Of a stretch of DNA of 32,000 bases, positions 3,407 through 28,124 are shown one piece after another. Origin of the DNA: Candidatus Saccharimonadota bacterium (GTDB taxonomy: Bacteria > Patescibacteriota > Patescibacteriia > 2-12-FULL-60-25). A program made the position numbers and the translations under genes. The DNA lies in the NCBI GenBank assembly GCA_022843095.1, contig JALHOH010000002.1, forward strand, positions 330,001 through 362,000, given 5' to 3'. A model generated the notes under the pieces. It was not told the origin of the DNA. It worked only from the letters and a program-made list of their open reading frames with translations, and ran no database searches. Position 1 is the first letter of the stretch. Each line of letters opens with the position of its first letter.

Positions 3407-3433
3407 GAAGCAAAGCATACACTGCCGGTAGCT

Positions 3434-7449: not shown

Positions 7450-7496
7450 AAAACCCACAATTGACGCCCCTATCCCGGAAGCGTACAACTGCTGGC

Positions 7497-9137
7497 ATGA
7501 AACGCATTGTTGTCGTGGGTTTTGGCTGGGTTGGTCAGGCAAATGCCTTGGCACTCGCCCAGATGGGATATGACGTCGCGCGGTATGACATCGGACAGCC
7601 GACGCATCATTATGCGCAGCGCTTTTCGACGATCTATCCGCGCATCACGATCCTGAATCAAGTGCTCGCCTGGGACGCACCCGACGTCACCTATCTTGTC
7701 TGTGTCGGCGACCGCGTGTCAGAGGAGGGGGTCCAAGACGTGTCGCTCATTCGCTCCGCGCTCGACAGCCTGCAGTCCGCAAAAGGGACCATCGTTTTGC
7801 GTTCCACGATTTTGCCAAGCCATCTCAAAACGCTGTCGTTTGATTTTTACGTCCCGGAATTCCTCCACGAAAAATACGCTGTGGAAGAATGCATGGATCC
7901 TCCCTACTTTGTGATTGGATCCGGAACACGTCGCCAGAACATCCCCGTTCCACCGGTCCTCCAAGAATGGAACGCGCGAGCCGGGAAATCCTATGAGGGG
8001 GATTTTCATTACGCCGCGCACATCAAATATCTCTCCAATATTTGGAACGCGCTTCGCATCGCGTTTGTAAACGAGTTTGGCGATTTAATGATGGACGAAC
8101 GCCCAACGCCGGAAAAGCAAAACGAAGTGAATCGGATTTTTTCCTTTTTGTTTGAAGGGAAGAGCTATCTCCGTTATGGACGTGCGTACGGCGGGCATTG
8201 TCTCCCAAAAGATACGCGTGCCTTTTTAGGCATGCATACCGAAGCCAAGAACACGCATATTTTGCGCGGCGTTCATCTTTCAAACAAAGCGCATGCCGAA
8301 TTGGAGGCGCAATCCGCCTTTTTGCCTGAATGGTTTTCGGCGTGGGATCAGCTCCCCGCAAACGGGACCACTGCGCGCACCCAAACGCGCTCCGAGCGCT
8401 TGTGGAATACCTCCGCCATCCGATTTCTTCGGCGTACCCTGAAGCCACTCGCGCACGGCGTGTCGCGCATGCTCGTCTCCCCGACTCTCGAAAAAACGCG
8501 TCGAGCATGGGAACAACATGCGCAGGAGAATGCCCGGTATTGGTCGCACCCAAAAACACCAAGCGGACGCAATGTGGATGACGCCGAACTCACAAAAACC
8601 GGCGAAGCGGATGTGGAACGGCACATTGTGCGCAACACCGCCATCCAATCACGCTTAGGCGACCTTGGAACACGCTCCGTCCTGGATCTTGGATGTGGCG
8701 TCGGACGCATGACCCTCCCGCTTGCACACCACGTTCGACAGGTCTCTGCCGTGGATCTTGCGCCAACCATGGTGGAACAGGCCATCAAGCGTGCGCAAGG
8801 GACAAAGAACATCGCCTTCACAACGACGGATGGGCGAACGCTTCCGTTCAAGGATGGATCCTTTGACCTTGTTTTCTCCCAGGAAACGCTTCACCATGTC
8901 CCAACAGACGCGGATCTCTCCAGCATTTTACGTGAAATTCGACGCGTTCTGACACCAACCGGCATCGCGCACCTCCAATTTCGGACGGGCGCCACACCGT
9001 TCCGCTGGAACTGGACCTACGGCGTCGCCCTGTCCCCCGAACGCGCCGCCTCTCTGCTTGCATCGCACGGCCTCACACAAACCGAAGCGCGTGTGGACGG
9101 AAAACATTTGTGGATCACCGCGATTCCCGCAACCTAA
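7497..9137 (+). CDS. Fusion protein: N-terminal truncated UDP-glucose/GDP-mannose dehydrogenase-like domain plus C-terminal class I SAM methyltransferase domain
   Basis: ORF 7350..9137 trimmed to the ATG at 7497 (MKRIVVVGFGWVGQ). The N-domain (about aa 1-275) has LRSTILPS, PEFLHE and YGGHCLPKDTRAF. The C-domain (about aa 335-546) has VLDLGCGVGRM...AVDLAPTMV...DGSFDLVFSQETLHHV. Confidence 0.85.
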   Translation: MKRIVVVGFGWVGQANALALAQMGYDVARYDIGQPTHHYAQRFSTIYPRITILNQVLAWDAPDVTYLVCVGDRVSEEGVQDVSLIRSALDSLQSAKGTIVLRSTILPSHLKTLSFDFYVPEFLHEKYAVEECMDPPYFVIGSGTRRQNIPVPPVLQEWNARAGKSYEGDFHYAAHIKYLSNIWNALRIAFVNEFGDLMMDERPTPEKQNEVNRIFSFLFEGKSYLRYGRAYGGHCLPKDTRAFLGMHTEAKNTHILRGVHLSNKAHAELEAQSAFLPEWFSAWDQLPANGTTARTQTRSERLWNTSAIRFLRRTLKPLAHGVSRMLVSPTLEKTRRAWEQHAQENARYWSHPKTPSGRNVDDAELTKTGEADVERHIVRNTAIQSRLGDLGTRSVLDLGCGVGRMTLPLAHHVRQVSAVDLAPTMVEQAIKRAQGTKNIAFTTTDGRTLPFKDGSFDLVFSQETLHHVPTDADLSSILREIRRVLTPTGIAHLQFRTGATPFRWNWTYGVALSPERAASLLASHGLTQTEARVDGKHLWITAIPAT

Positions 9138-11972: not shown

Positions 11973-13064
11973 ATGAATATCCCCTTCATCAAACCCGCCA
12001 TCGAACAGGAAGACCTGGACCGCATGCGCGATTCCGTTGCGTCGGGATGGCTTGCTGGTGGACCGTACATGAAGCAATTCGAAACGGCGTTCGCATCCTA
12101 TCTGGGTGCCCCGGATGCGGTTATGGTGAACTCCTGCGCCTCTGCCCTGCATCTCGCCGTCCATCTGGCCGGGATCGGTCCGGGCGATGAGGTCATCACA
12201 ACCCCGATGTCGTATGTCGCGACCTCAAACGCGGTGCTCCTTGCCGGCGGGACACCGGTATTTGTCGATATCGATCCTACCACCGGCCTTATCGATCTGA
12301 ATCTCATTGAGGCTGCGATCACCCCGCGCACCAAAGCCATCCTCCCCGTGCATTTAAACGGTCTCATGGTGGATATGCAGGCATTGGAGGCCCTCGCAAA
12401 AAAACACAACCTCCTGATCATCGAGGATGCGGCACATGCCGTGGAATCCAAACGCGATGGCATCGTTCCGGGAGAAAAAAGCTTTGCCGCCTGTTTTAGC
12501 TTCCATGCCGCAAAAAATCTGTCCTGCGGACAAGGAGGCGCCGTGGTTTCGCGAGATCCTGCCGTGAATGCCCGCGGCAAAGTCTTGCGTCGGAACGGGG
12601 TCGTGACGACCGAAACGGGGCGACAGATGGTCGACTTTGGATTCAAGTACGATTCGACAGATTTTCAAGCTGCGTTGCTGATTGGCCAGCTAGCACGCAT
12701 CACCAAAACACATGCCGCACGCTGGGAACGATTCCAGCGTTACGCTGAGGCCTTTCAACACCTCCCCAATGCCGTCCAGGCAGTTCCGCCAAACGTGGTC
12801 CATGCAGCGCACATGTTTACCCTCTGGACCGACGAAACGCGTCGTGACGGCTTGCGAAAACATCTTCAGGACGCCGGTATCGAAACCTCCGTCCACTACG
12901 AAGCCATTCCACAGGAGCCGTACTACGTAAAACGGTTCGGATTTACCCCCGGACAGTTCCCCCACGCCGAACGGATGGGCAAACGCGTGGTCACCCTTCC
13001 GTTGTACCCATCACTTACGAAGGATGAGCAGGACTACATCATCAAAACCGTTCTGGCCTACTAA
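11973..13064 (+). CDS. DegT/DnrJ/EryC1/StrS family PLP-dependent sugar aminotransferase
   Basis: FE..FA.YLGA...VNSCASALHLA...PMSYVATSNAV...IIEDAAHA...FSFHAAKNLSCGQGG (Lys in the usual PLP-Lys context). Confidence 0.9.
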   Translation: MNIPFIKPAIEQEDLDRMRDSVASGWLAGGPYMKQFETAFASYLGAPDAVMVNSCASALHLAVHLAGIGPGDEVITTPMSYVATSNAVLLAGGTPVFVDIDPTTGLIDLNLIEAAITPRTKAILPVHLNGLMVDMQALEALAKKHNLLIIEDAAHAVESKRDGIVPGEKSFAACFSFHAAKNLSCGQGGAVVSRDPAVNARGKVLRRNGVVTTETGRQMVDFGFKYDSTDFQAALLIGQLARITKTHAARWERFQRYAEAFQHLPNAVQAVPPNVVHAAHMFTLWTDETRRDGLRKHLQDAGIETSVHYEAIPQEPYYVKRFGFTPGQFPHAERMGKRVVTLPLYPSLTKDEQDYIIKTVLAY

Positions 13065-13066
13065 TA

Positions 13067-13094
13067 CAAACCCCCCGCCTGTGCGGGGGGTTTG
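13067..13094. terminator. Bidirectional hairpin terminator between convergent operons
   Basis: Perfect 12-bp stem caaaccccccgc / gcggggggtttg with loop ctgt. It sits between the stop at 13064 (+) and the stop at 13107 (-). The A/T ends of the stem supply short U-tracts in both directions. Confidence 0.7.
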
Positions 13095-13106: not shown

Positions 13107-13796
13107 CTAGTATTCTGCCACGTCGCGACCAGAGACAAAGTCCACGGCTTGAATGCCTGGTACCTTGCGAACGGCATCCAAAAATTGATGGTAGGACTCC
13201 GGATGCTTCAGGCGCACTTTGTAGTAGTACACGCGATCTTGTTCGACGCCGGACTTCACCTGCAGCAGTGTTGCCCCCTCCACCCGTTCGCGGATCACCT
13301 TTTCCAGCTCCTCCGCATTCAAGGCGTCCGTCCCGGTAAACGTCAGCAAGAACGCATTTCCCACGTAAGCGCCAAATCCAACGCGATCAAGGAGAAGAAG
13401 CAATGCCGACAATACGATCGTGGAAACGATGGCGATGCTGTAGTTATTCGTCCCGATCGCCATCCCGATCGACAACGCGAAAAACAGAAACGTTGCGTCT
13501 TTTGTGTCCTTCACGATGGTGCGGAACCGGATCAAGGTAAACACCCCAAGCACCCCGAGGGCGCGGGTCAGGTTGTTCCCAAGAATCATCATAGCGGTCG
13601 CAGCGAGCACCGACATCATCACGAGCGAATACAGATACGATCGCGAGTAGGAGATGCTTTTATGCGTTTTGGTGTACACCCATGCGATCGCAAGGCTCAT
13701 GAGCGCCGTGAGCAGCAGGTTTGCCAAAATCACGGCAACACTCATTTCTGTAAGCGACGAACGGGCAGCGTTGAGAAGTTGATCCATAGAAATCAT
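13107..13796 (-). CDS. DUF4956 family membrane protein
   Basis: About 4 TM segments followed by a soluble tail. GVFTLIRFRTIVKDTKDATFLFFAL resembles the DUF4956 signature I recall. Its start overlaps the VTC stop (TAATG at 13796). Confidence 0.7.
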   Translation of the reverse strand: MISMDQLLNAARSSLTEMSVAVILANLLLTALMSLAIAWVYTKTHKSISYSRSYLYSLVMMSVLAATAMMILGNNLTRALGVLGVFTLIRFRTIVKDTKDATFLFFALSIGMAIGTNNYSIAIVSTIVLSALLLLLDRVGFGAYVGNAFLLTFTGTDALNAEELEKVIRERVEGATLLQVKSGVEQDRVYYYKVRLKHPESYHQFLDAVRKVPGIQAVDFVSGRDVAEY

Positions 13797-14497
13797 TAGT
13801 GAGCGATCGGTTCAAAGGCGCGCACCGCATCCGCACACAGCGTGTATTTGGAGTGTGTGATACGTTCCAGCTGATAGGCTCGAATAAACTGCGCGACCTG
13901 TTCGGGCAACAACGTGCGAAACTTCACCTCGACCAGCACCTGCTGCGGCCTCACAGAGAGACAGGGACGCGTGTTGTGCAAATCCGCCGATTCCGTGGTT
14001 TCGAGGTCATAGTCGAAGGTGATGCGACACTGATCCATCCGATCCAGATATGCGCGGCGCTTGTACCGGACCAAGAGCCAGGGGCGTAACGGGCGCTCGT
14101 ACAAGGACCGTCGAACATCCTCGGGAAACTGCTCGACCCCGGTTCTTCCATCGCGGAGAAAGGCACGCGCCTGATCGCGGGTCAGGATGGCACGCGTCTT
14201 CCCGGTCAAGGTATCCGTTTTATGCTTTACCTCTAGCCACAATCGATCACATTCGGCGAGATTCGGTCGATATCCTCGGAGTCGCACCTTTTTTCGATGC
14301 AAGAGTCCGCCCATTTTTTCGTGGTAACACGCGAGGTCTAACGTATCGAAGTACAAACTGGTCACGGGATAAGACGTTTCCCCGGCGGGCGTACTCGGAT
14401 CCCGTTCGAGGCCGATTTGCCGGACCAAATGTTCCAGCATCATCGCTTGATGGACGGTGAGCGGATACTTGAATTCATGTCGGTACCGAATGTTCAT
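13796..14497 (-). CDS. VTC domain / polyphosphate-polymerase-like triphosphate tunnel metalloenzyme (TTM) protein
   Basis: N-terminal RHEFKY (ExK of the TTM fold), VTSLYFDTLDL, HRKKVRLRGY, VEVKF. No signal peptide or TM segment. ATGA overlap with the CotH stop (14494-14497). Confidence 0.75.
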   Translation of the reverse strand: MNIRYRHEFKYPLTVHQAMMLEHLVRQIGLERDPSTPAGETSYPVTSLYFDTLDLACYHEKMGGLLHRKKVRLRGYRPNLAECDRLWLEVKHKTDTLTGKTRAILTRDQARAFLRDGRTGVEQFPEDVRRSLYERPLRPWLLVRYKRRAYLDRMDQCRITFDYDLETTESADLHNTRPCLSVRPQQVLVEVKFRTLLPEQVAQFIRAYQLERITHSKYTLCADAVRAFEPIAH

Positions 14498-16944
14498 AGC
14501 GGAGGCAACTTACGTACGTCTCCCCATGAAGGATCGAGCTCTAGTCCTGCGGGTAGATCTTGCGTCACCCCTTCCCCGCGAAACCCGGCCTGTGCACGCG
14601 AGTTCTGCAAGGTGACCGTCCCCCCATCCCGAATGTCCGAAGCATGGACGTTTGCGCCGATCGTCATCCCTTCCCCCACAAAATCCCCTCCGCGGACAAA
14701 CTCCTGCTTTTTTTGATAGCTACTGATTCCAAGCTTGTTCCCCAAAATCCGCGTATTTTTGAATTGGATCCGTGCACGATCCTTCACCTCAACCCCTTTC
14801 GAGCACCCAAAAATCTCGGAGTCTTCCACGACAATATTGCGTGACTGCTCACCAACGCTCATCCCCTTATCCCCGAAGTGGGCGATGCGGACACGTTCCA
14901 CCTTCACCCCGTCCACACCCGAAAAATCCACGCCATCTCCATTACTCCCACGTGCCTTCTCATTCACGAACAGGGAATCACGTAGCACGCTATCCTGCAC
15001 ATAGTCCAAATCCAACGCATCCGAACTGTTGTTCACAAATTGGAGATGCGCGAGCTCCGTGGTCCCGGCAGCCACATGCATTCCATCATCCCCGTAGGCA
15101 TCGGCAAACAAGGAATGCTCGACGTTGGATCGAATCCCGCGCAAATCAAACTGCGACGTGATAAACATCCCCTGCCACGGCCGATTCTTTCCGCCACGTA
15201 CCTCGAGATAGGCAAACTGACTTGGTGCTTCGGTCGCATCAATGACGGTAAACACCCCCCATGGTTCGCCCGGTTTTGATCCATCCCCCATCAATCGAAT
15301 CCGCGACGCAGAAGTTCCGCGCGCATCCACGGGGCTATACGAAATCAAACTGATCGCCGGGGCGAATTTGAGCGTCACACCCGGTTCGATCGTGACACGC
15401 AATCCCTGCGGAATGATGACGTCCTGCGCGATGCGATATTCCCCGGCGCGCAACACGACACCCACGGTTCCGGACGCGGCAAAAAACGGATACCGCGCCA
15501 AAAACGCCTCGCGCGTGGCAAATCGAGACGCGTATTCTTTAAACGTCTCTGGGTAGACGATCGGTCGCTCAAGACGCGCCGGCGCCGTAATCTGCGAAGA
15601 TTCCAGCCCATCGATCGTCGCGGCGAGCGTCTCAAAGTTACGCTTCAGCAGCTCACGATTCCGAGCGACACGCGCATCAAACTGCGCATCGCTTTCGATC
15701 TTTGCCTGGTCACGATAAAAATCTTCACGATAGCGCTTGACCATCGCATCGTACTCCGCCAAGTCCGCATCAAGCCGGGTCGGATCTTGCACATAAGACC
15801 TAACGACAGCCTTGAATTCCTCCAAAAACGCAGGATGACGCAAAATGCGTTTGACCAGCGCGTTGTGCTGATTCCAAAGGTCGGCCTGGGTCGCAGGCGG
15901 TTCAAACAATTCGACATCCCAAGGCAGAAGCTCGAATTTTCCGGTTTCGACCTGGAAAAACAACACCGTGTTCCCCGCATCTCCCGCGTGCGCCGAACCG
16001 GCAAGCGCATGCACCAGCATCCAGCGATAGGCTTTTTGCAAATCCACAAGCCCAGGAATGAGCTTTGCGAACTCCGCATCGTTCGTTCGTGTGACTAGTT
16101 GATGCAGTAGATCCATCTCCGGGAAGGGACCGATCGGATTTGCAGCCGTGTAGCTCTGCCATTCAGAAAGCCCCTTCACTGGATCAAATCCGTTCACCGT
16201 TTCACCAATGGATGGATCACGCAGACTCAAAATATTCCCGCTATCAAATCGATCCGCACGCGCCAAAAATTCCGGCGACCAAACGTCCGCCCCCAAATAC
16301 ACCCCAAAATCACGTTTATTAACAGAGAGCTTCACGAATTCAAACTGTGGCGTGAGTAGCCCAAGATCCGCCGCACGCATCGCGTTCAACGGTTCGACGA
16401 AATATTGACGATCTTCCGGCAAAAACAGGTTGTACCCCGCCATCCCACGGTAATAATGATCATGCGGGAATTTAAATCGATACCCCTTTTTTTCGTGCGT
16501 CCAGTTGGAATCAACCAGCCCCCGATACCGCGTCTCCACGGCCGAAATGTAGCCGTCGCGTTCATCATAAAAATAAGCGTCGCTGTACTTCTTCCGATCA
16601 TCCGTCATGTTATCGAACCCTCCGGTACGCGGATCGAACGGCAAAGAGGCGATCATTTCTTCGACATCCGTCGCATCAATCGCCAAACGAATTTCCCGAA
16701 TATCACTTGTTCCAAACCAGCTGCCGATATTTTTCAGGTTTCCAATTTTTTTTATTGAGTGCCACGCCGTAAAAAAATGACGTACGCGTGGATCGGTCAC
16801 GACAGAAGATTGGATGGATCCACGAAATGCAACCCCGATCCCGATGAGCACGATTCCAAGGACGGCCGCGAGCAGCACAAGCCGACGACGGAGCCGCGCC
16901 TGACTCTCCCCTCCCCCAAAATACAGCGGCAACTGGGTACGCAT
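14494..16944 (-). CDS. Membrane-anchored CotH kinase family protein with a C-terminal right-handed parallel beta-helix (PbH1) region
   Basis: N-terminal signal anchor RLRRRLVLLAAVLGIVLIGIGVAF. CotH-like region about aa 85-450 (KGYRFKF...YNLFLPEDRQYFVEPLNAMRAADLGLLTPQFEFVKLSVNKRDFGVYLGADVWSPEFL). Repetitive beta-helix-like turns about aa 495-785 (coords about 14590-15462; NNSSDALDLDY..., GDGVDFSGVDGVKVERVRI, GDKGMSVGEQSRNIVVEDSEIFGCSKGVEV). Confidence 0.8.
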   Translation of the reverse strand: MRTQLPLYFGGGESQARLRRRLVLLAAVLGIVLIGIGVAFRGSIQSSVVTDPRVRHFFTAWHSIKKIGNLKNIGSWFGTSDIREIRLAIDATDVEEMIASLPFDPRTGGFDNMTDDRKKYSDAYFYDERDGYISAVETRYRGLVDSNWTHEKKGYRFKFPHDHYYRGMAGYNLFLPEDRQYFVEPLNAMRAADLGLLTPQFEFVKLSVNKRDFGVYLGADVWSPEFLARADRFDSGNILSLRDPSIGETVNGFDPVKGLSEWQSYTAANPIGPFPEMDLLHQLVTRTNDAEFAKLIPGLVDLQKAYRWMLVHALAGSAHAGDAGNTVLFFQVETGKFELLPWDVELFEPPATQADLWNQHNALVKRILRHPAFLEEFKAVVRSYVQDPTRLDADLAEYDAMVKRYREDFYRDQAKIESDAQFDARVARNRELLKRNFETLAATIDGLESSQITAPARLERPIVYPETFKEYASRFATREAFLARYPFFAASGTVGVVLRAGEYRIAQDVIIPQGLRVTIEPGVTLKFAPAISLISYSPVDARGTSASRIRLMGDGSKPGEPWGVFTVIDATEAPSQFAYLEVRGGKNRPWQGMFITSQFDLRGIRSNVEHSLFADAYGDDGMHVAAGTTELAHLQFVNNSSDALDLDYVQDSVLRDSLFVNEKARGSNGDGVDFSGVDGVKVERVRIAHFGDKGMSVGEQSRNIVVEDSEIFGCSKGVEVKDRARIQFKNTRILGNKLGISSYQKKQEFVRGGDFVGEGMTIGANVHASDIRDGGTVTLQNSRAQAGFRGEGVTQDLPAGLELDPSWGDVRKLPPL

Positions 16945-16980: not shown

Positions 16981-18126
16981 TCAAACAGCCGTATTTTTTG
17001 TAATCCAGTCAAGAACCGCCTGTGCGCGATGCGTCCACGTGTACGTTCCGGCCGCCAATTCCTGTGCACGAGCGCCGTACGCGGCATACGCCGCCGGATC
17101 CTGAAGGACGTGTAGCAACACCTGCACCAATGCTGCGCGATCATCCGCCGGATAAAATACGGCAAGGTCCTCGTTCAGCACATCACGCACGGATGGAAGA
17201 TCCGACGTGACAATCGGCGTCCCACTTGCCATGTATTCGAACATTTTGAGCGGCGACATTTCATACGCATAGTGGGGCGTGTTCGGAAATGGCATCACCA
17301 GGGCATCGGCGGCGCGGTAGTACAGCGCCAATTCGGTTCGAGGACGGTTGGAGATGCAGCGGGTCGCATCCCCAGGAGCGCGTCCTTCCATCTTCAAAAA
17401 ATCCTGCTCTGATCCACCCACGAGATACAATCGCGCGTCCGGAATGCGCGTCGCGATCTCCTGCATGGCGAGATCCAGCATCCCAAGCCCCTTGCCCGCC
17501 CCCATCGTGGAAAACCGCCCTCCATACACCACCACACGCGCCTCGGGCGGGATCCCAAGCGCGGCACGCGCCTCGGCCTTGGTTTGTAACGGATGAAACA
17601 CCGCCATCTCCACGGCATCTGGAATCACGGTACAGGGTGTCTCCGGCAACGTCTCCCGCACTCGATCCGTGAGCGCTCGCGTCATGCACACGATACCCGT
17701 GACCTTCTCGAGCTTTTTCAGAACCTTGGTGGGAGGCAGTGCGTGAATCTCATAAAACACCCGTCCCACACGCGACAGCGCTTCGGCCATGCGTGCATCG
17801 CGGGTATACAACACCGCATCCGGATGGGCTTTCGCAAAACGCACCGCCTGACGCACAAACGTGGCGCGTTCGAGCACAAATGCCGGGGCAAACAGCCACG
17901 ACGGCAGATAGGGAAACAAATCGATCACCGGGAGCTCTCGCACCGAAAACGAAGGGGTCACGCCATAATGCGTAAACGGATCGCCCTGAAGCGACCCACG
18001 ACGGTTGGTCACCCCAAGCGTCACCTGTGCGTTTGCGAGACAAAGCGCTTCGCAGGTCTTCATGATTTGGTATCCATGCGCCTTTTCGGTCGGGAGGCGG
18101 ATATTTTCGAGATAGACGACATGCAT
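16981..18126 (-). CDS. Glycosyltransferase family 4
   Basis: ORF 16981..18324 trimmed to the ATG at 18126 (MHVVYLENIRLPTEKAHGYQIMKTCEAL). The C-terminal half has VVVYGGRFSTMGAGKG...YEMSPLKMFEYMASGTPIVTSD (E-x7-E-like GT4 motif). Confidence 0.8.
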   Translation of the reverse strand: MHVVYLENIRLPTEKAHGYQIMKTCEALCLANAQVTLGVTNRRGSLQGDPFTHYGVTPSFSVRELPVIDLFPYLPSWLFAPAFVLERATFVRQAVRFAKAHPDAVLYTRDARMAEALSRVGRVFYEIHALPPTKVLKKLEKVTGIVCMTRALTDRVRETLPETPCTVIPDAVEMAVFHPLQTKAEARAALGIPPEARVVVYGGRFSTMGAGKGLGMLDLAMQEIATRIPDARLYLVGGSEQDFLKMEGRAPGDATRCISNRPRTELALYYRAADALVMPFPNTPHYAYEMSPLKMFEYMASGTPIVTSDLPSVRDVLNEDLAVFYPADDRAALVQVLLHVLQDPAAYAAYGARAQELAAGTYTWTHRAQAVLDWITKNTAV

Positions 18127-18210
18127 ACGACTTTGGCAAAGCATACGCGTCTCCCCAAAACCGAGCAACGCCCTCTGTTCGAGAACCCCGGGATTGTCTA
18201 TGCTCGTTTT

Positions 18211-19473
18211 ATGATTGCTCGCACAAAAGTGGCTGCCCATCGTACCCTCACCCGCCTCGGTGCCCGCATCGGGACGGATCTGGTCTACCTGGCAAAAGGC
18301 GGTTTTTGGATCAATATCCGCCAATTTTTAGCCATGGCGTTTAGTTTACTGACCGCGCTTCTTTTTGGACGCTACGTCTCGCAAGAAGTCTACGGAGAAT
18401 ACAAATACCTCGTTTCCATCTTTAGCTTGCTTACAACGCTCACCCTCACCGGGCTCGGTTCGGGCGTCATGCAAGCGATCGCGCGCGGCAATGAGGGGAC
18501 GCTTCCAAAGGCCTTTTGGCTAAACCTGCGCTGGAGCGTCTTTGCCTGTGCAGGCGCCATCGGATACGCCGGGTATCAATTGGCGCAGGGAAACACAACG
18601 CAAGGTATTGCGCTCCTCCTGATTGCCGTCACCTTCCCGTTCATTCGGAGTTTTCAATTGGCAGAATCGTTTTATACCGGGACACGTCAGTTCCAAAAAA
18701 ACGCCCTCCTCAAAGGAACGGCGGATACGCTGCTTTTTTTGGCGGTCGCGATCGTCGCCATCTGGACCAACAACGTGCTGCTTATTTTGTGCGCGTTTTT
18801 GTTTACCAGCCTCATCTCCGAAGGGACGATTTACCTCTACACGCGTTCTCGAATCACGCATCTGGAACGAGTGGAATACGACGTCTTTTCGTTCAGCAAA
18901 CATCTCAGCGTGACCGGGATCGTCTCGAGCATCGCAGGGCAAGCCGATAAACTCCTCGTCTACCATGTCCTTGGCGCGGTACCGCTTGCCGTGTACACTT
19001 TCGCGCTCGCCATTCCAAAACAGTTCCGGACGGCGGTGAGCTTTGTCGCACCTCTCGCCAAACCAAAATATGCCGTGATGGAAGAACACCAGGTCCGCAC
19101 CTCTGTCTTTCACAAGTTCGTGTTGTCGCAAGCCATCTTGATCCCGGCGACGATCGTGTATTGGCTCGCAGCCCCCTGGATCTACCAAACGTTTTTCCCG
19201 CAGTACGTGGAATCCGTAACCGCATCTCGCCTGTACGCGCTCATCTTTCCGCTCTTTGGAAACTTCAGCTTTATCGCCTTTGAAACCCAAAAGAAAACCC
19301 GAGAAACCTACCTCTCCACCCTCATTCCGAGCGTCATCCAAATCGCCCTCATGGTTGCCTGTATTTTCCCATTTGGGATCAACGGCGTGATCCTCGCGAC
19401 GCTCATCGCGAAATACGGAAGCACCCTTTATTCGCTGCTCCTTGTTTCTCGCATGCGAACATCCAATACTTAA
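18211..19473 (+). CDS. Wzx-like oligosaccharide/polysaccharide flippase (MOP superfamily)
   Basis: ORF 17593..19473 trimmed to the ATG at 18211, because the upstream part is antisense to the GT4 gene. 420 aa and very hydrophobic, about 12 TM segments, with an N-terminus typical of Wzx (GGFWINIRQFLAMAFSLLTALLFGRYVSQEVYGEY). Confidence 0.8.
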   Translation: MIARTKVAAHRTLTRLGARIGTDLVYLAKGGFWINIRQFLAMAFSLLTALLFGRYVSQEVYGEYKYLVSIFSLLTTLTLTGLGSGVMQAIARGNEGTLPKAFWLNLRWSVFACAGAIGYAGYQLAQGNTTQGIALLLIAVTFPFIRSFQLAESFYTGTRQFQKNALLKGTADTLLFLAVAIVAIWTNNVLLILCAFLFTSLISEGTIYLYTRSRITHLERVEYDVFSFSKHLSVTGIVSSIAGQADKLLVYHVLGAVPLAVYTFALAIPKQFRTAVSFVAPLAKPKYAVMEEHQVRTSVFHKFVLSQAILIPATIVYWLAAPWIYQTFFPQYVESVTASRLYALIFPLFGNFSFIAFETQKKTRETYLSTLIPSVIQIALMVACIFPFGINGVILATLIAKYGSTLYSLLLVSRMRTSNT

Positions 19474-19480
19474 AAGCCGT

Positions 19481-20497
19481 ATGATGAAATTCATTGTCGC
19501 CATCCTTCTTGGCATTGTCGGACACGGGACCTTTGTTCAGGCGCAACAGACGCCGATCGATATCCGAGCGTTTGAAAACGTCCGCATCGAACAGGAGGAT
19601 AAAATCTTGGTTCCCGAGGGGAAGGCGGATGAAGTCTGGAAGTACATCACGGAACGATATTTGAATCAGGAACATGTAAAAACCCTGGATCCGGAATTTT
19701 CGACGTACCACCACGACGAACAGTTTGAAGACCGTTATTTTGATACACCCGACCTGTTCATGCTGGGAAAGAAAAGTGGTATTCGACATCGCAAGCGCGA
19801 AAACCTGACCGATCCCACCGACCGAAAGGATGGACGCGAGCTTGTTCAGATCAAACTAAACAACATCAGCGACAACCCGCTTGAACGCGCAGAAATCAAG
19901 TTTGACGTCGAATACCCTCTCTATCGCGAGGGAAAAGAAAATACGCATCCTTTGATCGGCGTCATCAAAGAATCCGATCGACGCGCGTTTTTCACAGAAA
20001 CGGCAAAACTTGGAATTGACCCGTTTTCGCTCCGCCCGGTTGTGACGCTCCACAACCTCCGTCGGCGCGTCTACTTCAAAAAAGGCGATCAGCCGTTCAT
20101 GTCCATTTCGTTTGACTACGTGAACAGCAACGTGTGGTGGGCAAAGGCGAATTTTGTCGAAATTGAACCGGAATTAAACGAAGAACAGTTCACCGCCGCC
20201 TCCCCAGAAACACGGCGTTACATGGAAGAAAAGCTGCACCTCCTCATGACGGATTTAAAAACCAAATTTCCATACCTACAAACCAATCTCACCCCAAAGT
20301 ACAACAAAACGTTTGAACGGATCGAGCACGCTTTGCCTTTTTTTCGTTTCTTGGTGCAAATCTACTTCCATACCGTGGAAGGGATGCTGCTTGTGATTGC
20401 CGGGATCCTGGCGCTGATCGGAGGCGTGGGATACGCGATCCGCGCCCGCATCCTTGCCGCCCGCACAAAAAAACACGAGGCAGAACTTGCCTCGTGA
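19481..20497 (+). CDS. Exported, C-terminally membrane-anchored CYTH (triphosphate tunnel metalloenzyme) domain protein
   Basis: Start at the ATG at 19481, 7 nt after the flippase stop. Signal peptide MMKFIVAILLGIVGHGTFVQA-QQ. CYTH ExExK signature RIEQEDKILV. Also DRYFDTPDLFML...GIRHRKRE and FVEIEPEL. C-terminal TM GMLLVIAGILALIGGVGYAI followed by a basic tail RARILAARTKKHE. Confidence 0.75.
   Translation: MMKFIVAILLGIVGHGTFVQAQQTPIDIRAFENVRIEQEDKILVPEGKADEVWKYITERYLNQEHVKTLDPEFSTYHHDEQFEDRYFDTPDLFMLGKKSGIRHRKRENLTDPTDRKDGRELVQIKLNNISDNPLERAEIKFDVEYPLYREGKENTHPLIGVIKESDRRAFFTETAKLGIDPFSLRPVVTLHNLRRRVYFKKGDQPFMSISFDYVNSNVWWAKANFVEIEPELNEEQFTAASPETRRYMEEKLHLLMTDLKTKFPYLQTNLTPKYNKTFERIEHALPFFRFLVQIYFHTVEGMLLVIAGILALIGGVGYAIRARILAARTKKHEAELAS
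20467..20496 (-). terminator. Rho-independent terminator of the NeuB-like gene, embedded in the last codons of the convergent CYTH gene
   Basis: The minus strand reads CACGAGGCA-AGTTC-TGCCTCGTG (9-bp stem) followed by TTTTTTTGTG. It lies 14 nt downstream of the stop at 20510-20512. Confidence 0.65.
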
Positions 20498-20509: not shown

Positions 20510-21523
20510 TTAGACGCGGCGCAGTTTCTTCATCGTTGCGATCTCGCCGTCGAGGACGCGCTTGACCCCATCGCCGCAGATCTTCTGGAGATCCTCGGCG
20601 GACGCCCAGTCCGTGATCTTGGCGGTACCGGCTTCCAGCGCACGGATCTTCGTGACGAGCTCCGCCATCTGTGCCGGCGCGAGCGACGCCTTCTGATCCG
20701 ACCCGGGCATCTTCTTATCGAGGGTGATGTGCCGCTCGATCACGCAGGCGCCCATCGAAGCCGCGACGAGCGAGGGGAGGATTCCCTCCTCGTGGCCGGA
20801 GTATCCGACCGGCACGTCCGGAAACGCGCGACGCAGGAGGTTCATCACCTCCAGGTTTGCGTCTTCGTCACGCGCCGGGTAGGTGCTGACGCAGTGCAAG
20901 AGCACCAGATCTTGGGTGCCGAGCACCTCAACGGCGTGCGTAATCTGCTCGAGCGTCGACCCACCCGTCGAGAGGATCACCGGCTTCCGGTTCGATCGCA
21001 CCCGACGCAGCAGGTCATCGTGGGTCAGGCATGGCGATGCGATCTTGTGCCACGCCACATCGAAGCCGTTCATGAAGTGGGCGCTGAGCCCATCCCAGGA
21101 AGAGGCGGCGAAGTGAATCCCGCGGCTCTTGCAGTGCCGCTCGATCTCGTCGAACTCGGCGAGGCCGAACTCGAGGGACCACTTGAGGTCCCCGTTCGTC
21201 GTGCGCTCGGGCTCGATGAAGAGCCGCGCGCACGCCTCGTCCGGCAGGACCATCCGACGCTTCCCGCCCAGCATCGCGCGCTCGCGTGCATGTGCGATGA
21301 AGCTCGGGTCAAACGCGCGTGGCGTCGCGAGCTCCTCGGCGGTGTACACGGTCGGCACATCGCGCTTCTGGAACTTCACCGCGTCGCACCCGGCCTCGAC
21401 CGCGACGTCGATCAGCCGCTTCGCGATCGCGAGACTGCCGTTGTGGTTGATGCCGATTTCGGCAATAACATAGCACGGATTCCCGGGGCCGATCTTTCGA
21501 TCGGCGAAACACACCGCCTTCAT
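20510..21523 (-). CDS. NeuB/NANS-family ulosonic acid (phosphate) synthase, PEP-condensing; no C-terminal SAF domain
   Basis: ORF trimmed to the ATG at 21523, preceded by AAGGAG. PCYVIAEIGINHNGSL...AGCDAVKFQ...PVILSTGGST...LLHCVSTYPA...VGYSGHEEG...VIERHITLDKKMPGSDQKASLAPAQMAELV. The protein is 337 aa and ends about 20 residues after the barrel. Confidence 0.85.
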   Translation of the reverse strand: MKAVCFADRKIGPGNPCYVIAEIGINHNGSLAIAKRLIDVAVEAGCDAVKFQKRDVPTVYTAEELATPRAFDPSFIAHARERAMLGGKRRMVLPDEACARLFIEPERTTNGDLKWSLEFGLAEFDEIERHCKSRGIHFAASSWDGLSAHFMNGFDVAWHKIASPCLTHDDLLRRVRSNRKPVILSTGGSTLEQITHAVEVLGTQDLVLLHCVSTYPARDEDANLEVMNLLRRAFPDVPVGYSGHEEGILPSLVAASMGACVIERHITLDKKMPGSDQKASLAPAQMAELVTKIRALEAGTAKITDWASAEDLQKICGDGVKRVLDGEIATMKKLRRV

Positions 21524-21528
21524 GTGAA

Positions 21529-21534
21529 CTCCTT
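21529..21534 (-). promoter_or_regulatory. Shine-Dalgarno site (AAGGAG) of the NeuB-like gene
   Basis: The minus strand reads AGAAGGAGTTCAC-ATG, a 5-nt spacer. Confidence 0.6.
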
Positions 21535-21594
21535 CTTTCTGACTCGCAATGTGCGAACTCGGGTCAAAGAAAAACACACCCGTATCAGGCCGTC

Positions 21595-21624
21595 AATAAA
21601 ACCCCCCTCACGAGCGAGGGGGGT
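21595..21624 (-). terminator. Rho-independent terminator after the HAD gene, separating it from the NeuB-like gene
   Basis: The minus strand reads TAA-GTG-ACCCCCCTC-GCTCGT-GAGGGGGGT-TTTATT. An 8-9 bp G/C stem is followed by a T-rich tract, directly after the stop at 21628-21630. Confidence 0.7.
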
Positions 21625-21627
21625 CAC

Positions 21628-22311
21628 TTATGGATAGAGAAGGGCGCTACAGGCTTCTCGCAGGGTATTTGCGAAGCACTCCTCTGGAATGCCTCGGTCG
21701 AACCCCTCTCGACGACGCGCTTCCGTATCAGGAACGATCCGACATTGGATTCCCGCACCGTTCGCGGAAGCGTATCCCTTCCACTCATTCTCGACCGCGA
21801 GGCAGATGCTCGGATCGAACGCGACACGATGGAGCGCGAGGTGATAAACCGCGGAATCCGGCTTACTCGCCCCAGCCTCATGCGTACTCACGAACGCATG
21901 AAACCAGGCACGCCATCCCATGATCTCCGAGGTCCGACGAATGAGATTGGGTGACATCCCAGAGACAATCGCCATGCGATACCCGCGAGCCAAAAGTTGC
22001 TCCAGGACATCGGACACATCCTCCTGAGTCGGCTTCAGGTGCAGGGCGTAATAGGCGCACATCGCCTCCTCACGACTCGCCTTGATCTCTGAGACCTGCG
22101 TGGAGAGACCGTGCGTTTCTATGCATTCCTGGAAAATATGGTCCAGGAGAACACCTGCGTCACGACGGGCGCGCCAGACCGGTTTCCAAGCCTCCCAATT
22201 CGTTGCTCCGAGAAGCGATGAGAAAAACGCCTCATCGATCCGTGGCCAGTGACGCTCGCTTTGAACGAGCGTCCCGTCCAGATCGAACAGGACACCAGCG
22301 ATCTCGCTCAC
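21628..22311 (-). CDS. HAD-IA (beta-phosphoglucomutase-like) phosphatase
   Basis: Start assigned to the GTG at 22311, preceded by GGAGG with a 4-nt spacer and overlapping the SIS stop (GTGA). (V)SEIAGVLFDLDGTLV is motif I (DxDGT). AIVSG is motif II, ASKPD is motif III, and LAVENEWKGYASANGAGI is a motif IV-like region. Confidence 0.8.
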   Translation of the reverse strand: MSEIAGVLFDLDGTLVQSERHWPRIDEAFFSSLLGATNWEAWKPVWRARRDAGVLLDHIFQECIETHGLSTQVSEIKASREEAMCAYYALHLKPTQEDVSDVLEQLLARGYRMAIVSGMSPNLIRRTSEIMGWRAWFHAFVSTHEAGASKPDSAVYHLALHRVAFDPSICLAVENEWKGYASANGAGIQCRIVPDTEARRREGFDRGIPEECFANTLREACSALLYP

Positions 22312-22919: not shown

Positions 22920-22951
22920 GGACGAAGAACTACCCGCAAAATGGAACCTCG

Positions 22952-25391: not shown

Positions 25392-25482
25392 AAAATCCCT
25401 TGCTTTTTTGCGTAATTCGTTGGTAGAGTCAAGTCGGGATCGTCCCTTCTACCCTAACGGAGAACGCTCTGATCCGCAATCC

Positions 25483-25490
25483 AAAGGAGG
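25483..25490 (+). promoter_or_regulatory. Shine-Dalgarno site (AAAGGAGG) of the radical SAM gene
   Basis: AAAGGAGG-ATTC-GTG. It is the strongest ribosome-binding site in the window. Confidence 0.65.
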
Positions 25491-25494
25491 ATTC

Positions 25495-28083: not shown

Positions 28084-28124
28084 ATGGCTTGAACGGTACC
28101 AACCTTCCTGCTAAAAACAAAGTC

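What the first reader, a model, noticed from the sequence alone, without database searches (positions are those of the whole stretch)
13107..16944. Tightly coupled CotH kinase / VTC polyP-polymerase-like / DUF4956 membrane module inside a glycan locus
Seen directly: the three genes are translationally coupled (ATGA at 14494-14497, TAATG at 13796) and follow a GT4 gene on the same strand. CotH has an N-terminal signal anchor with a positive-inside RLRRR, which places its kinase-like domain and a roughly 290-aa parallel beta-helix outside the membrane. The VTC protein has TTM signatures (RHEFKY, SLYFDT, RKKVRLRGY) and no export signal. DUF4956 is polytopic. Established: CotH proteins are atypical protein kinases (Bacillus spore coat). 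The VTC/TTM domain is the catalytic core of eukaryotic Vtc4, which makes polyphosphate and threads it through a membrane channel. Inference: an extracytoplasmic kinase has no ATP supply. VTC plus DUF4956 could synthesise and export polyP or another phosphoanhydride as donor or product, so that CotH phosphorylates a surface glycan or protein bound by its beta-helix. I know of no experimental characterisation of this bacterial trio.
Basis: partly seen in the sequence, partly recalled or inferred. Interest (0 to 1): 0.75.

Follow-up and report, generated by a model that had tools for sequence, protein, structure and literature searches.

The report
Outside-facing CotH enzyme with polyphosphate-export pair
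Three tightly coupled genes in a sugar-coat locus look like an internal polyphosphate-making enzyme, its membrane partner and an outward-facing kinase-like enzyme; the set recurs across many bacteria, but its chemistry has never been tested.

Summary
Three minus-strand genes overlap at their stop and start codons. They encode a membrane-anchored CotH-like protein with a beta-helix (816 aa), a VTC-type tunnel enzyme (233 aa) and a DUF4956 membrane protein (229 aa).

VTC plus DUF4956 is the core. They were adjacent in 9 of 9 sampled VTC relatives. In outer-membrane bacteria the next gene is an HlyD adaptor (6 of 6 loci), then TolC-like OEP in both Myxococcales loci. That is the layout of an export machine.

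The VTC protein keeps every residue that yeast Vtc4 needs to make polyphosphate. CotH joins the pair in many lineages, always with an export signal.

Two points are new. In this clade the catalytic Asp of CotH is an invariant His (19 of 20 sequences, against Asp in 124 of 124 others). A second, exported tunnel-fold protein lies 2.5 kb away; elsewhere it is adjacent to the pair or fused to CotH.

The trio itself is not new: it was described beside Gram-positive pel operons in 2020, and deletion mutants were reported in 2025. This is a new variant of a known but biochemically uncharacterised module.

The parts
14494..16944 (-). CotH-like protein with a beta-helix, 816 aa. It has an N-terminal signal anchor, a kinase-fold domain and a right-handed beta-helix.
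   Evidence: Pfam CotH E=2.8e-17 and Beta_helix E=1.2e-9. The AlphaFold2 model has mean pLDDT 74. Foldseek matches B. cereus CotH 5jda at E=2.7e-15, TM 0.83 normalised to the target.
16825..16881 (-). Signal-anchor TM helix of CotH (residues 22-40), preceded by RLRRR. This puts the rest of the protein outside the membrane.
   Evidence: Hydropathy score 2.96. All 20 clade relatives have the same kind of N-terminal anchor, and the Myxococcales relative has a lipoprotein-type signal.
15643..16530 (-). CotH kinase-fold domain (residues 139-434). Key residues are K153 (16486-16488), H319 (15988-15990, in the place of the catalytic Asp), N325 (15970-15972) and D343 (15916-15918).
14740..15480 (-). 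Right-handed parallel beta-helix (about residues 489-735). It resembles enzymes that bind or modify polysaccharides.
   Evidence: Model strands 489-734. Foldseek hits are the AlgE4/AlgE6 mannuronan epimerases (E=6.6e-5 and 1.8e-4), AlgG, PL6 lyases, NosD and phage tailspikes.
13796..14497 (-). Stand-alone VTC-type triphosphate tunnel enzyme, 233 aa, cytoplasmic. The active site is Vtc4-like.
   Evidence: Pfam VTC E=1.5e-30. The family profile hits Vtc4 at E=2e-20. The model has pLDDT 96 and its best Foldseek hits are Vtc4 at E=3.7e-15. No TM segment was found.
13107..13796 (-). DUF4956 membrane protein, 229 aa. It has 4-5 TM segments and a soluble C-terminal domain, and is distantly MgtC/SapB-like. 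The invariant RFRT motif lies at 13518-13529.
   Evidence: Pfam DUF4956 E=9.4e-14 and MgtC below its cut-off. NCBIfam MgtC/SapB E=5.9e-6, below its cut-off. Invariant residues.
13063..13090 (.). GC-rich hairpin (CCCCCCGC-ACAG-GCGGGGGG) with T-rich runs on both sides. It is a likely two-way terminator shared with the convergent DegT gene.
   Evidence: Read directly. The consensus scan did not list it.
16981..18324 (-). GT4 glycosyltransferase directly upstream, probably in the same transcript. Its true start is probably downstream of the listed TTG.
   Evidence: Pfam Glyco_trans_1_4 and Glycos_transf_1. The same GT4-CotH order occurs in relatives.
19442..20497 (+). Second tunnel-fold (CYTH) protein, with a signal peptide and a C-terminal TM anchor, so predicted to lie outside the membrane. 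Probable fourth part of the module. The true start is probably the ATG at 19481.
   Evidence: Pfam CYTH E=1.5e-8, above the cut-off. Hydropathy. A homologue lies directly upstream of VTC in L029 (E=7.5e-54) and the domain is fused to CotH in L045 (E=5.4e-42).

Best explanation
The three genes form one functional module that handles phosphate on the outer face of the membrane, for the surface glycan made by the surrounding locus.

- **Step 1 (inferred from conserved residues).** The cytoplasmic VTC protein uses a nucleoside triphosphate to build a polyphosphate chain, or another short phosphoanhydride, in its tunnel, as yeast Vtc4 does.
- **Step 2 (inferred from gene context).** DUF4956 sits in the membrane with its soluble C-terminal domain inside. 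It partners the VTC protein and passes the product across the membrane. The pair would then be a two-gene counterpart of the eukaryotic VTC synthase-translocase.
- **Step 3 (topology shown by sequence; chemistry inferred, and the least certain step).** The CotH-like protein is anchored by one N-terminal helix, with its kinase-fold domain and beta-helix outside. The beta-helix holds the glycan. The kinase-fold domain transfers phosphate to the glycan, or to a surface protein, from the exported polymer rather than from ATP. In this clade an invariant His takes the place of the usual catalytic Asp.
- **Possible fourth part.** The nearby exported CYTH-type protein probably binds or trims the exported chain.
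For: **The module is real.**
- Stop and start codons overlap.
- From the DUF4956 side, VTC lies directly upstream in 15 of 22 genome loci, including every locus with a strong DUF4956 match.
- From the VTC side, DUF4956 was adjacent in 9 of 9 sampled representatives, and CotH was adjacent in 6 of 8 that could be judged.
- From the CotH-clade side, VTC directly follows CotH in 12 metagenome loci. It lies 3.4 kb downstream in L045 and is absent from 2.3 kb downstream in L043. L036 ends inside CotH, and L046 holds only a distant CotH.
- Gene order differs between lineages: CotH-VTC-DUF4956 here, VTC-DUF4956-CotH in L029, L049 and Planococcus, and CotH-LTD-VTC-DUF4956 in L019. That argues for selection on the gene set, not on one ancestral arrangement.

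**Step 1.**
- Window residues K10, R72, R74, K91, Y145, R147, E190, S216 and K217 match Vtc4 K200, R264, R266, K281, Y359, R361, E426, S457 and K458.
- Mutating K200, R264, R266, K281, Y359, R361, S457 or K458 of Vtc4 lowers polyP. E426 binds the Mn2+. K458 is Ile or Leu in the inactive Vtc2/3.
- The structure model's best matches are the Vtc4 polymerase (E about 1e-15), ahead of hydrolytic tunnel enzymes such as YgiF at 3e-9.

**Step 2.**
- In 6 of 6 loci from outer-membrane bacteria, an HlyD-family adaptor follows DUF4956, and its start overlaps the DUF4956 stop in L017.
- OEP follows the adaptor in both Myxococcales loci.
- No other inner-membrane transporter was found in the same-strand gene run of these loci.
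- DUF4956 has invariant Arg90 and Arg92 (the RFRT motif) and Asp100 across 24 sequences from several phyla. The VTC channel is likewise lined with rings of basic residues.

**Step 3.**
- All 22 CotH partners checked carry an N-terminal anchor or a secretion signal.
- The beta-helix resembles enzymes that act on polysaccharides.
- In L019 and L018 a separate Cthe_2159 carbohydrate-binding beta-helix gene takes its place.
- An exported tunnel-fold domain is fused to CotH in L045.
Against: - There is no biochemical result for any bacterial member.
- In S. intermedius the VTC deletion had no aggregation or Pel phenotype. The DUF4956 and CotH deletions changed Pel in opposite directions (PMC12345266). 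This is hard to fit to a linear donor-supply pathway.
- To my knowledge no kinase-fold enzyme is known to use polyphosphate.
- The window's clade lacks the canonical catalytic Asp, and 6 of 20 members also lack the metal-binding Asp. The domain could therefore be a binding module rather than an enzyme.
- The bacterial VTC family keeps Glu8, from the ExExK motif of hydrolytic tunnel enzymes, where Vtc4 has Thr198. Hydrolase activity is not excluded.
- DUF4956 is unrelated to the three-helix VTC membrane domain. Its nearest named relatives, MgtC/SapB, are known as regulators, not channels.
- The CotH catalytic loop is modelled at low confidence (pLDDT below 50 for residues 318-324).
Confidence: 0.4

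Rival explanations
1. Exported polyphosphate is itself the end product, as a surface or extracellular polyanion layer. The outside proteins (CotH-beta-helix, CYTH, and LTD or Cthe_2159 in other lineages) bind it, tether it to the glycan or trim it. CotH here acts as a binding module or pseudokinase and transfers no phosphate.
For: - The core pair occurs without CotH in 10 of the 15 VTC-containing genome loci.
- The accessory outside proteins vary: LTD, Cthe_2159, CotH and CYTH.
- The catalytic Asp is absent in the window's clade, and the metal-binding Asp is missing in 6 of 20 members.
- The HlyD/OEP context indicates export right out of the cell.
Against: - K153, H319 and N325 are (near-)invariant across the clade (K153 in 19 of 20, H319 in 19 of 20, N325 in 20 of 20). 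This is more typical of an active site than of a decayed one.
- CotH partners in other lineages keep the full canonical catalytic set.
Confidence: 0.2
2. CotH is a Ser/Thr protein kinase that regulates the glycan assembly machinery, as proposed for pel loci. VTC and DUF4956 manage phosphate or polyP inside the cell and are linked to CotH only by regulation.
For: - Bacillus CotH is a proven protein kinase (PMC7821199).
- The pel authors suggested regulation by phosphorylation.
- The S. intermedius deletions altered the amount of Pel but did not abolish it.
Against: - The kinase-fold domain is predicted to lie outside the membrane in every relative checked, away from cytoplasmic ATP and from the cytoplasmic glycosyltransferases.
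- The HlyD/OEP neighbours and the CotH-CYTH fusion are not explained.
- The fused glycan-type beta-helix points to a glycan partner.
Confidence: 0.15
3. The VTC protein is a hydrolase or a sensor of tripolyphosphate or NTP, not a polymerase. DUF4956 is an MgtC-like membrane regulator. The module senses or scavenges phosphate and exports nothing.
For: - Most bacterial tunnel-fold enzymes are hydrolases (established knowledge of the CYTH family).
- Glu8 of the ExExK motif is retained.
- DUF4956 shows weak similarity to MgtC/SapB.
Against: - Sequence and fold are closest to Vtc4, and the Lys specific to the polymerase is kept.
- The pairing with a periplasmic adaptor and an outer-membrane channel is not expected for a sensor.
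Confidence: 0.1
4. The three genes are neighbours by chance within a crowded glycan locus.
For: None beyond the dense gene packing.
Against: The same set recurs across Patescibacteria, Bacillota, Myxococcota and a T9SS-bearing lineage, and on plasmids, with changed gene order and with domain fusions.
Confidence: 0.01

Closest known systems
cotH-PPP-DUF4956(-DUF4832) accessory genes of Gram-positive pel operons (Whitfield et al. 2020, PMC7112168; S. intermedius SIR_1594/1593/1592, PMC12345266)
   Same: The same three families lie contiguous beside an exopolysaccharide locus. CotH is predicted to be secreted. DUF4956 is described there as an MgtC-like membrane domain plus an intracellular ACT-like domain.
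   Different: - No pel genes are present here. The locus has a Bac_transf initiating transferase, a Wzx-type flippase and nonulosonic-acid genes.
- CotH carries a beta-helix rather than an FN3 domain.
- The catalytic Asp is His.
- There is no DUF4832 gene, and an exported CYTH protein is present.
- The 2025 paper reported that its analyses failed to find this syntenic arrangement outside the Pel locus. This window and Pseudobutyrivibrio plasmid pNP95 show that it does occur outside.
Eukaryotic VTC complex (Vtc4/Vtc3/Vtc1), which makes polyP and moves it across the membrane
   Same: The tunnel domain has the same fold and the same triphosphate-binding and metal-binding residues, including the K458 equivalent. 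It is tied to a membrane protein that has conserved basic residues.
   Different: There is no SPX domain and no three-helix VTC/DUF202 membrane domain. The catalytic and membrane parts are separate genes. The membrane partner belongs to a different family (DUF4956, MgtC-like). Glu8 replaces Thr198.
Bacillus CotH spore-coat Ser/Thr kinase (PDB 5JD9/5JDA)
   Same: Same fold (TM 0.83 normalised to the target). The Lys, the Asn and the DFG-like Asp are conserved.
   Different: The catalytic Asp (Bsu D228) is His. The protein is membrane-anchored and faces outward. It is fused to a beta-helix and sits in a glycan locus, not a spore-coat context.
C. perfringens NELoc-2 (VTC domain / 'tubulin-FtsZ-like' / CotH, PMC2879425) and the Planococcus maritimus plasmid locus
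   Same: VTC, DUF4956 and CotH lie beside glycosyltransferases.
   Different: The order is VTC-DUF4956-CotH, followed by a 685-689 aa protein and a HEAT-repeat protein. CotH is canonical (Asp kept) and has no beta-helix.
Secretory-pathway glycan kinases of animals (Fam20B xylose kinase, POMK); from my own knowledge, not tested here
   Same: These are kinase-fold enzymes that work outside the cytosol and phosphorylate sugars. POMK was long taken for a pseudokinase because its catalytic residues are displaced.
   Different: They use ATP imported into the lumen. No polyP link is known and they have no beta-helix.
Tripartite envelope-spanning exporters (inner-membrane transporter + HlyD adaptor + TolC/OEP)
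   Same: In the loci from outer-membrane bacteria, VTC-DUF4956 is followed by HlyD. OEP then follows in the two Myxococcales loci.
   Different: The inner-membrane component would be DUF4956 rather than an ABC, RND or MFS transporter. The window's own organism shows no such genes and probably lacks an outer membrane.

Membership tests
CotH kinase family (PF08757) | Matches the family profile above the curated cut-off | tested here: met
   63.7 bits against a cut-off of 23.8.
CotH kinase family (PF08757) | Atypical kinase fold as in B. cereus CotH | tested here: met
   Foldseek hit to 5jda at E=2.7e-15, TM 0.83 normalised to the target. Model pLDDT is above 85 over most of the core.
CotH kinase family (PF08757) | Catalytic Asp (B. 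subtilis D228; D228Q is inactive) | tested here: not met
   The column is Asp in 119 of 119 Bacillales CotH and in 5 of 5 other VTC-linked CotH. It is His319 here and in 19 of 20 clade members, in the same register after Trp308 (PMC7821199).
CotH kinase family (PF08757) | Nucleotide-binding Lys, catalytic-loop Asn and metal-binding Asp (B. subtilis D251) | tested here: met
   K153, N325 and D343 are present in the window. Across the clade D343 is D in 14, N in 5 and E in 1.
CotH kinase family (PF08757) | ATP-dependent protein phosphorylation | not testable with these tools
   Needs an enzyme assay.
Vtc4-type polyphosphate polymerase (VTC domain, PF09359) | Matches the VTC profile, and the closed tunnel fold is closest to Vtc4 | tested here: met
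   106.9 bits against a cut-off of 23. The family profile hits Vtc4 at E=2e-20, better than Vtc2/3. Foldseek E=3.7e-15, TM 0.73-0.76 normalised to the query.
Vtc4-type polyphosphate polymerase (VTC domain, PF09359) | Triphosphate and Mn2+ ligands K200, R264, R266, K281, Y359, R361, E426, S457, plus K458 (specific to the active subunit) | tested here: met
   K10, R72, R74, K91, Y145, R147, E190, S216 and K217 are all invariant in 51 family members.
Vtc4-type polyphosphate polymerase (VTC domain, PF09359) | Tunnel domain joined in one chain to an SPX domain and a three-helix VTC membrane domain | tested here: not met
   The protein is 233 aa with the VTC domain alone and no TM segment. The membrane partner is a separate DUF4956 gene.
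Vtc4-type polyphosphate polymerase (VTC domain, PF09359) | Makes polyP from ATP and passes it through the membrane | not testable with these tools
   Needs reconstitution.
DUF4956 (PF16316) | Matches the profile above the cut-off and is a multi-pass membrane protein | tested here: met
   51.9 bits against a cut-off of 30.6. TM segments. Invariant SYS and RFRT motifs.
MgtC/SapB family | Matches the family profile above the curated cut-off | tested here: not met
   Pfam MgtC 18.4 bits against 31.4. NCBIfam PRK09977 26 bits against 214. The resemblance is distant only.
pel-associated cotH-PPP-DUF4956 accessory module | The three genes are contiguous | tested here: met
pel-associated cotH-PPP-DUF4956 accessory module | Contiguous with pelDEA(DA)FG | tested here: not met
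   Pfam scans of the main window ORFs gave no pel family. The flippase matches only Polysacc_synt, and the GT4 has no PelF-type match.
CYTH / triphosphate tunnel family (for the neighbour at 19442-20497) | Matches the CYTH profile above the cut-off | tested here: met
   35.1 bits against 23.2. hhalign against the VTC profile gives E=1e-4 over 218 columns.
CYTH / triphosphate tunnel family (for the neighbour at 19442-20497) | Conserved ExExK motif on the first strand | tested here: inconclusive
   E50-x-E52-x-K54 is present in the window protein but not conserved in its two relatives.

The most novel reading that the evidence does not exclude
Bacteria have a third route to polyphosphate besides PPK1 and PPK2. 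It is a two-gene VTC-like synthase-translocase (VTC tunnel enzyme plus DUF4956) that builds the chain inside and pushes it out. In outer-membrane bacteria the chain leaves through an HlyD/TolC conduit. The exported polymer is the phosphoryl or energy source for outward-facing CotH-family enzymes. That would explain how extracellular bacterial kinase-fold proteins work without ATP. The clade-specific Asp-to-His change would mark a switch to a polyP donor, possibly through a phospho-His intermediate.
Probability: 0.25. Interest if true: 0.85.

Novelty: new variant of a known kind. Interest (0 to 1): 0.65.

Why it matters
- Bacterial polyphosphate synthesis is credited to PPK1 and PPK2. A VTC-type enzyme coupled to export would add a new route and a source for extracellular polyP.
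- Many bacteria secrete CotH-family proteins (on cellulosomes, as T9SS cargo, beside pel loci), and their phosphate donor outside the cell is unknown. This module offers a concrete, testable answer.
- The closest relatives found are Patescibacteria, which have reduced genomes. They keep the module inside their surface-glycan loci, so it probably matters for their cell surface.
- The Asp-to-His clade gives a natural test of whether the kinase-fold domain has changed its chemistry.

Tried and rejected
- **Locus searches with VTC alignments failed.** Alignments A1 and A2 had no stretch conserved enough to search with. I used a DUF4956 alignment for genomes and a CotH-clade alignment for metagenomes instead.
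- **The third homologue search was poorly designed.** Including a B. cereus fragment pulled in almost only Bacillales CotH. Those sequences were still useful as the canonical reference set.
- **Word-index searches found few relatives.** They gave 4 for VTC and 2 for CotH. The exhaustive search showed that the VTC family is large, with 4499 cluster representatives.
- **The catalytic-loop alignment was unstable.**
  - Ungapped MAFFT runs put Ala320, and then Asp322 by analogy with L048, opposite the catalytic Asp.
  - I rejected both after a gap-tolerant alignment and a register count: there are 10 residues after the conserved Trp in all 143 sequences bar one. These place His319 there.
- **Other candidates tested.**
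  - The genes just upstream of VTC in Planococcus and in L049 are not CYTH-like.
  - L049's gene looks like a coiled-coil adaptor but has no Pfam match, so I do not count it.
  - The LTD proteins are not hidden CotH.
- **Signal scans added little.** One promoter-like site lies before cotH, but that is fewer than chance gives (1 found, 3.4 expected). The hairpin after DUF4956 was not listed.
- **Source organism not identified.** The window's contig carries no name, and its genome is not in the species-representative set.

Full report
**1. The observation**

The three ORFs sit on the minus strand exactly as described: 16944..14494 (816 aa), 14497..13796 (233 aa) and 13796..13107 (229 aa).
- The CotH stop overlaps the VTC start in ATGA, and the VTC stop overlaps the DUF4956 start in TAATG.
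- A GT4 gene ends 36 bp upstream of cotH.
- A perfect 8-bp GC hairpin with T-rich flanks follows DUF4956. It is shared with the convergent DegT aminotransferase gene.
- Pfam assigns CotH plus Beta_helix, VTC, and DUF4956, all above the curated cut-offs.

The surrounding 32 kb is one large glycan locus. It holds:
- a Bac_transf initiating transferase and a Wzx-type flippase;
- several GT4 genes, epimerases/dehydratases, UDP-sugar dehydrogenase-like genes, methyltransferases and DegT;
- a NeuB / cytidylyltransferase / HAD / SIS set;
- a B12-radical SAM gene.

No pel family was detected.

**2. Source**

The proteins are on record only from one unnamed NCBI contig of 525,788 bp.
- The closest relatives of the DUF4956 protein in species-representative genomes are Patescibacteria: Yanofskybacteria, Saccharibacteria and an unclassified Patescibacteria group bacterium, at 38-47% identity.
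- All five of those genomes carry the same CotH-VTC-DUF4956 arrangement.
- The window therefore probably comes from a member of that radiation, but this is not proven.

**3. The VTC protein**

The stand-alone bacterial VTC family is large. An exhaustive search found 4499 cluster representatives at E≤1e-3.
- In a 51-sequence alignment the invariant residues are E8, K10, Y43, S47, Y49, R68, K70, R72, R74, E89, K91, K100, P139, Y145, R147, R158, D162, E190, K192, S216 and K217.
- The profile matches the yeast Vtc4 tunnel domain at E=2e-20. It matches the inactive Vtc2 and Vtc3 less well.
- Residue by residue, K10, R72, R74, K91, Y145, R147, E190, S216 and K217 correspond to Vtc4 K200, R264, R266, K281, Y359, R361, E426, S457 and K458.
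- The cryo-EM study reports that K200, R264, R266, K281, Y359, R361, S457 and K458 hold the triphosphate, and that mutating any of them lowers polyP. E426 chelates the Mn2+. K458 is the one residue that differs in Vtc2/3.
- The AlphaFold2 model is very confident (pLDDT 96). Its best structural matches are Vtc4 (E=3.7e-15), ahead of the hydrolases YgiF, SaTTM and thiamine triphosphatase.

There are three differences from Vtc4:
- there is no SPX domain and no membrane domain;
- Glu8 stands where Vtc4 has Thr198;
- two extra basic residues (R68, K70) are present.

The hydropathy scan finds no membrane segment, so the protein is taken to be cytoplasmic.

**4. DUF4956**

The hydropathy scan and the positive-inside rule suggest about five membrane segments, with the N-terminus outside and the soluble domain (about residues 140-229) inside (plus my reading of the loop charges).
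- It resembles MgtC/SapB only weakly, below both curated cut-offs.
- Across 24 distinct sequences from several phyla the invariant residues are Y41, S49-Y50-S51, G84, R90-F91-R92-T93, D100, G111, G115 and G142.
- Two invariant arginines in or next to a membrane segment would suit an anion path. This is an inference.

**5. Who travels with whom**

| Search side | Result |
|---|---|
| DUF4956 | 15 of 22 genome loci have VTC directly upstream, often overlapping. The 7 without it are weak, MgtC-like matches in Bradyrhizobium and Acidobacteria. |
| VTC | 9 of 9 sampled representatives have DUF4956 adjacent. 6 of 8 that could be judged have CotH adjacent. |
| CotH clade | In 12 metagenome loci VTC directly follows CotH, and DUF4956 follows wherever the contig continues. 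In L045 the pair lies 3.4 kb downstream. L043 has none in 2.3 kb downstream. |

Gene order varies between lineages:
- VTC-DUF4956-CotH in L029, in L049 and on a Planococcus plasmid;
- CotH-LTD-VTC-DUF4956 in a Myxococcales genome;
- DUF4956-VTC in L047.

Two cultured examples were found in RefSeq plasmids.
- Pseudobutyrivibrio xylanivorans pNP95 has GT2 - CotH - 'polyphosphate polymerase domain' - DUF4956 - GT4, in a non-pel polysaccharide locus.
- Planococcus maritimus repeats the order published for C. perfringens NELoc-2.

The pair VTC plus DUF4956 is therefore the core, and CotH is a frequent add-on.

**6. Context that speaks to export**

In all six loci from outer-membrane lineages with enough downstream DNA, the gene after DUF4956 is an HlyD-family periplasmic adaptor. 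These loci are three Phycisphaerae/Planctomycetaceae, one Planctomycetota and two Myxococcales.
- In L017 the adaptor's start overlaps the DUF4956 stop.
- In both Myxococcales loci a TolC-like OEP gene follows.
- In two planctomycete loci an LTD protein follows.
- No other inner-membrane transporter was found in the same-strand gene run of these loci.

An adaptor and an outer-membrane channel normally dock on an inner-membrane exporter, and DUF4956 is the only candidate. This is the strongest new argument that the pair moves something out of the cell.

**7. The CotH-like protein**

Topology and fold:
- Every CotH partner examined carries an N-terminal signal anchor preceded by basic residues. 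The exceptions are a lipoprotein signal in Myxococcales and a T9SS sorting domain in L049. An outward-facing location is thus a constant feature.
- The model (pLDDT 74) matches B. cereus CotH at TM 0.83, normalised to the target.
- The C-terminal part is a right-handed beta-helix. It is most like mannuronan epimerases, alginate lyases, NosD and phage tailspikes, which are folds that bind or modify polysaccharides.
- Elsewhere the beta-helix is a separate gene (Cthe_2159 family, L018 and L019), or is replaced by LTD or by a CYTH domain.

Catalytic residues, taken from a gap-tolerant alignment of 144 sequences:

| Column (window residue) | 119 Bacillales CotH | 5 other VTC-linked CotH | Window's clade (20) |
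|---|---|---|---|
| Catalytic Asp, Bsu D228 (H319) | Asp in 119 | Asp in 5 | His in 19 |
| Catalytic-loop Asn (N325) | Asn in 119 | Asn in 3 | Asn in 20 |
| Metal-binding Asp, Bsu D251 (D343) | Asp in 119 | Asp in 5 | Asp 14, Asn 5, Glu 1 |
| Nucleotide-binding Lys (K153) | Lys in 117 | Lys in 3 | Lys in 19 |

- The H319 column is in the same register in all groups, with ten residues after the conserved Trp.
- The B. subtilis D228Q and D251A proteins are inactive (PMC7821199).
- The domain here is therefore either a pseudokinase or an enzyme with altered chemistry. The strict conservation of Lys, His and Asn favours the second, but this is not shown.
- The catalytic loop itself is modelled with low confidence.

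**8. A fourth part**

The ORF at 19442-20497 (plus strand) lies 2.5 kb from cotH.
- It encodes a CYTH-family tunnel protein (35.1 bits, cut-off 23.2) with a signal peptide and a C-terminal membrane anchor followed by a basic tail. Its tunnel domain should therefore lie outside.
- A homologue lies directly upstream of VTC-DUF4956-CotH in L029 (E=7.5e-54).
- In L045 the same domain is fused to the C-terminus of an anchored CotH domain (E=5.4e-42; Pfam finds both CotH and CYTH), with VTC-DUF4956 3.4 kb downstream.
- Its profile aligns with the VTC family over 218 columns (E=1e-4).
- It occurs in only a minority of the loci.

An exported enzyme of a family that acts on triphosphate-type substrates makes sense only if such substrates reach the outside. 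That again fits export.

**9. Mechanism and rivals**

The best-supported reading is this: the VTC protein makes a phosphoanhydride polymer inside the cell; DUF4956 takes it across the membrane; the anchored CotH-beta-helix protein and the CYTH protein act on it at the surface glycan.

I rate the steps as follows:

| Step | Estimated probability |
|---|---|
| The module is one functional unit | about 0.95 |
| Topology as described | about 0.85 |
| VTC acts as a polymerase | about 0.55 |
| DUF4956 exports the product | about 0.45 |
| CotH uses polyP as its donor | about 0.2-0.25 |

The main counter-evidence is genetic. In S. intermedius the VTC deletion had no phenotype, and the other two deletions changed Pel in opposite directions.

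The rivals are:
- polyP itself is the exported product, and the outside proteins are binders;
- CotH is a regulatory protein kinase;
- VTC is a hydrolase or a sensor.

**10. Relation to what is known**

The trio is not new as a gene set.
- Whitfield et al. (2020) described cotH, a 'poly-phosphate polymerase' and DUF4956 (plus DUF4832) as accessory genes of Gram-positive pel operons.
- The 2025 S. intermedius paper deleted them. It stated that its analyses failed to find this syntenic arrangement outside the Pel locus.
- Lepp et al. (2010) listed the same neighbours in C. perfringens NELoc-2.
- No paper in the searched library reports any enzyme activity for a bacterial member.

What this analysis adds:
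- the module occurs outside pel loci, across several phyla and on plasmids;
- the core is the VTC-DUF4956 pair;
- the pair is linked to HlyD and OEP in outer-membrane bacteria;
- a clade of CotH-beta-helix proteins carries an Asp-to-His change at the catalytic position;
- there is an exported CYTH partner, in one case fused to CotH.

I file the finding as a new variant of a known but biochemically uncharacterised module.

Noticed in passing
window 19442-20497 (+): A CYTH-family tunnel protein with a signal peptide and a C-terminal TM anchor, so predicted to lie outside the cell. Homologues sit next to VTC in L029 and are fused to CotH in L045. The listed TTG start is probably wrong: the exact sequence is not in the protein collection, and an ATG lies at 19481.
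   Followed up: yes
L003/L016, L012, L014, L015, L017, L019 (downstream of DUF4956): In outer-membrane lineages VTC-DUF4956 is followed by an HlyD-family adaptor. After that comes OEP (TolC-like) in the two Myxococcales loci, or an LTD protein in L014 and L017. This looks like an undescribed exporter spanning the whole envelope.
   Followed up: partly
L019:2277-6989: A Myxococcales locus carries the parts as separate genes: Cthe_2159 beta-helix carbohydrate-binding protein, canonical CotH with a lipoprotein signal, and a small LTD protein. VTC, DUF4956, HlyD and OEP follow.
   Followed up: partly
L051:4369-7703: In another CotH(beta-helix)-VTC-DUF4956 locus the next genes are an NTP transferase, a PNK3P/HAD phosphatase and an inorganic pyrophosphatase, with an alkaline phosphatase on the opposite strand. 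This is a cluster of phosphate-handling genes.
   Followed up: no
window 13063-13090: A perfect 8-bp GC hairpin with T-rich runs on both sides lies between the convergent DegT and DUF4956 genes. It is a likely two-way terminator. The consensus scan did not list it.
   Followed up: partly
window 7350-9137 (+): A 595-aa ORF combines partial UDP-glucose/GDP-mannose dehydrogenase domains with a C-terminal class I methyltransferase domain. This is an unusual fusion, or the upstream start is over-called.
   Followed up: no
window 1928-3565 (-) and 3188-4810 (+): A subtilase (Peptidase_S8) gene lies next to the Bac_transf initiating transferase, and the listed ORFs overlap by about 380 bp. The same S8-Bac_transf pairing occurs in the closest relative, L002.
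   Followed up: no
window 20510-23767 (-), 28089-28862 (+): NeuB, HAD phosphatase, SIS isomerase, a xylose-isomerase-like TIM barrel and a CMP-sugar cytidylyltransferase suggest that a nonulosonic or related acidic sugar is part of the glycan.
   Followed up: no
window 25195-27114 (+): A B12-binding radical SAM enzyme lies inside the glycan locus. A 503-aa ORF with no family match overlaps it on the other strand (25504-27015).
   Followed up: no
L006, L032, L038, L040: A sub-group of the CotH-beta-helix clade has Tyr in place of Asp322. In three of the four, Asn replaces the metal-binding Asp (PWN). All four keep the invariant His and the full trio.
   Followed up: partly
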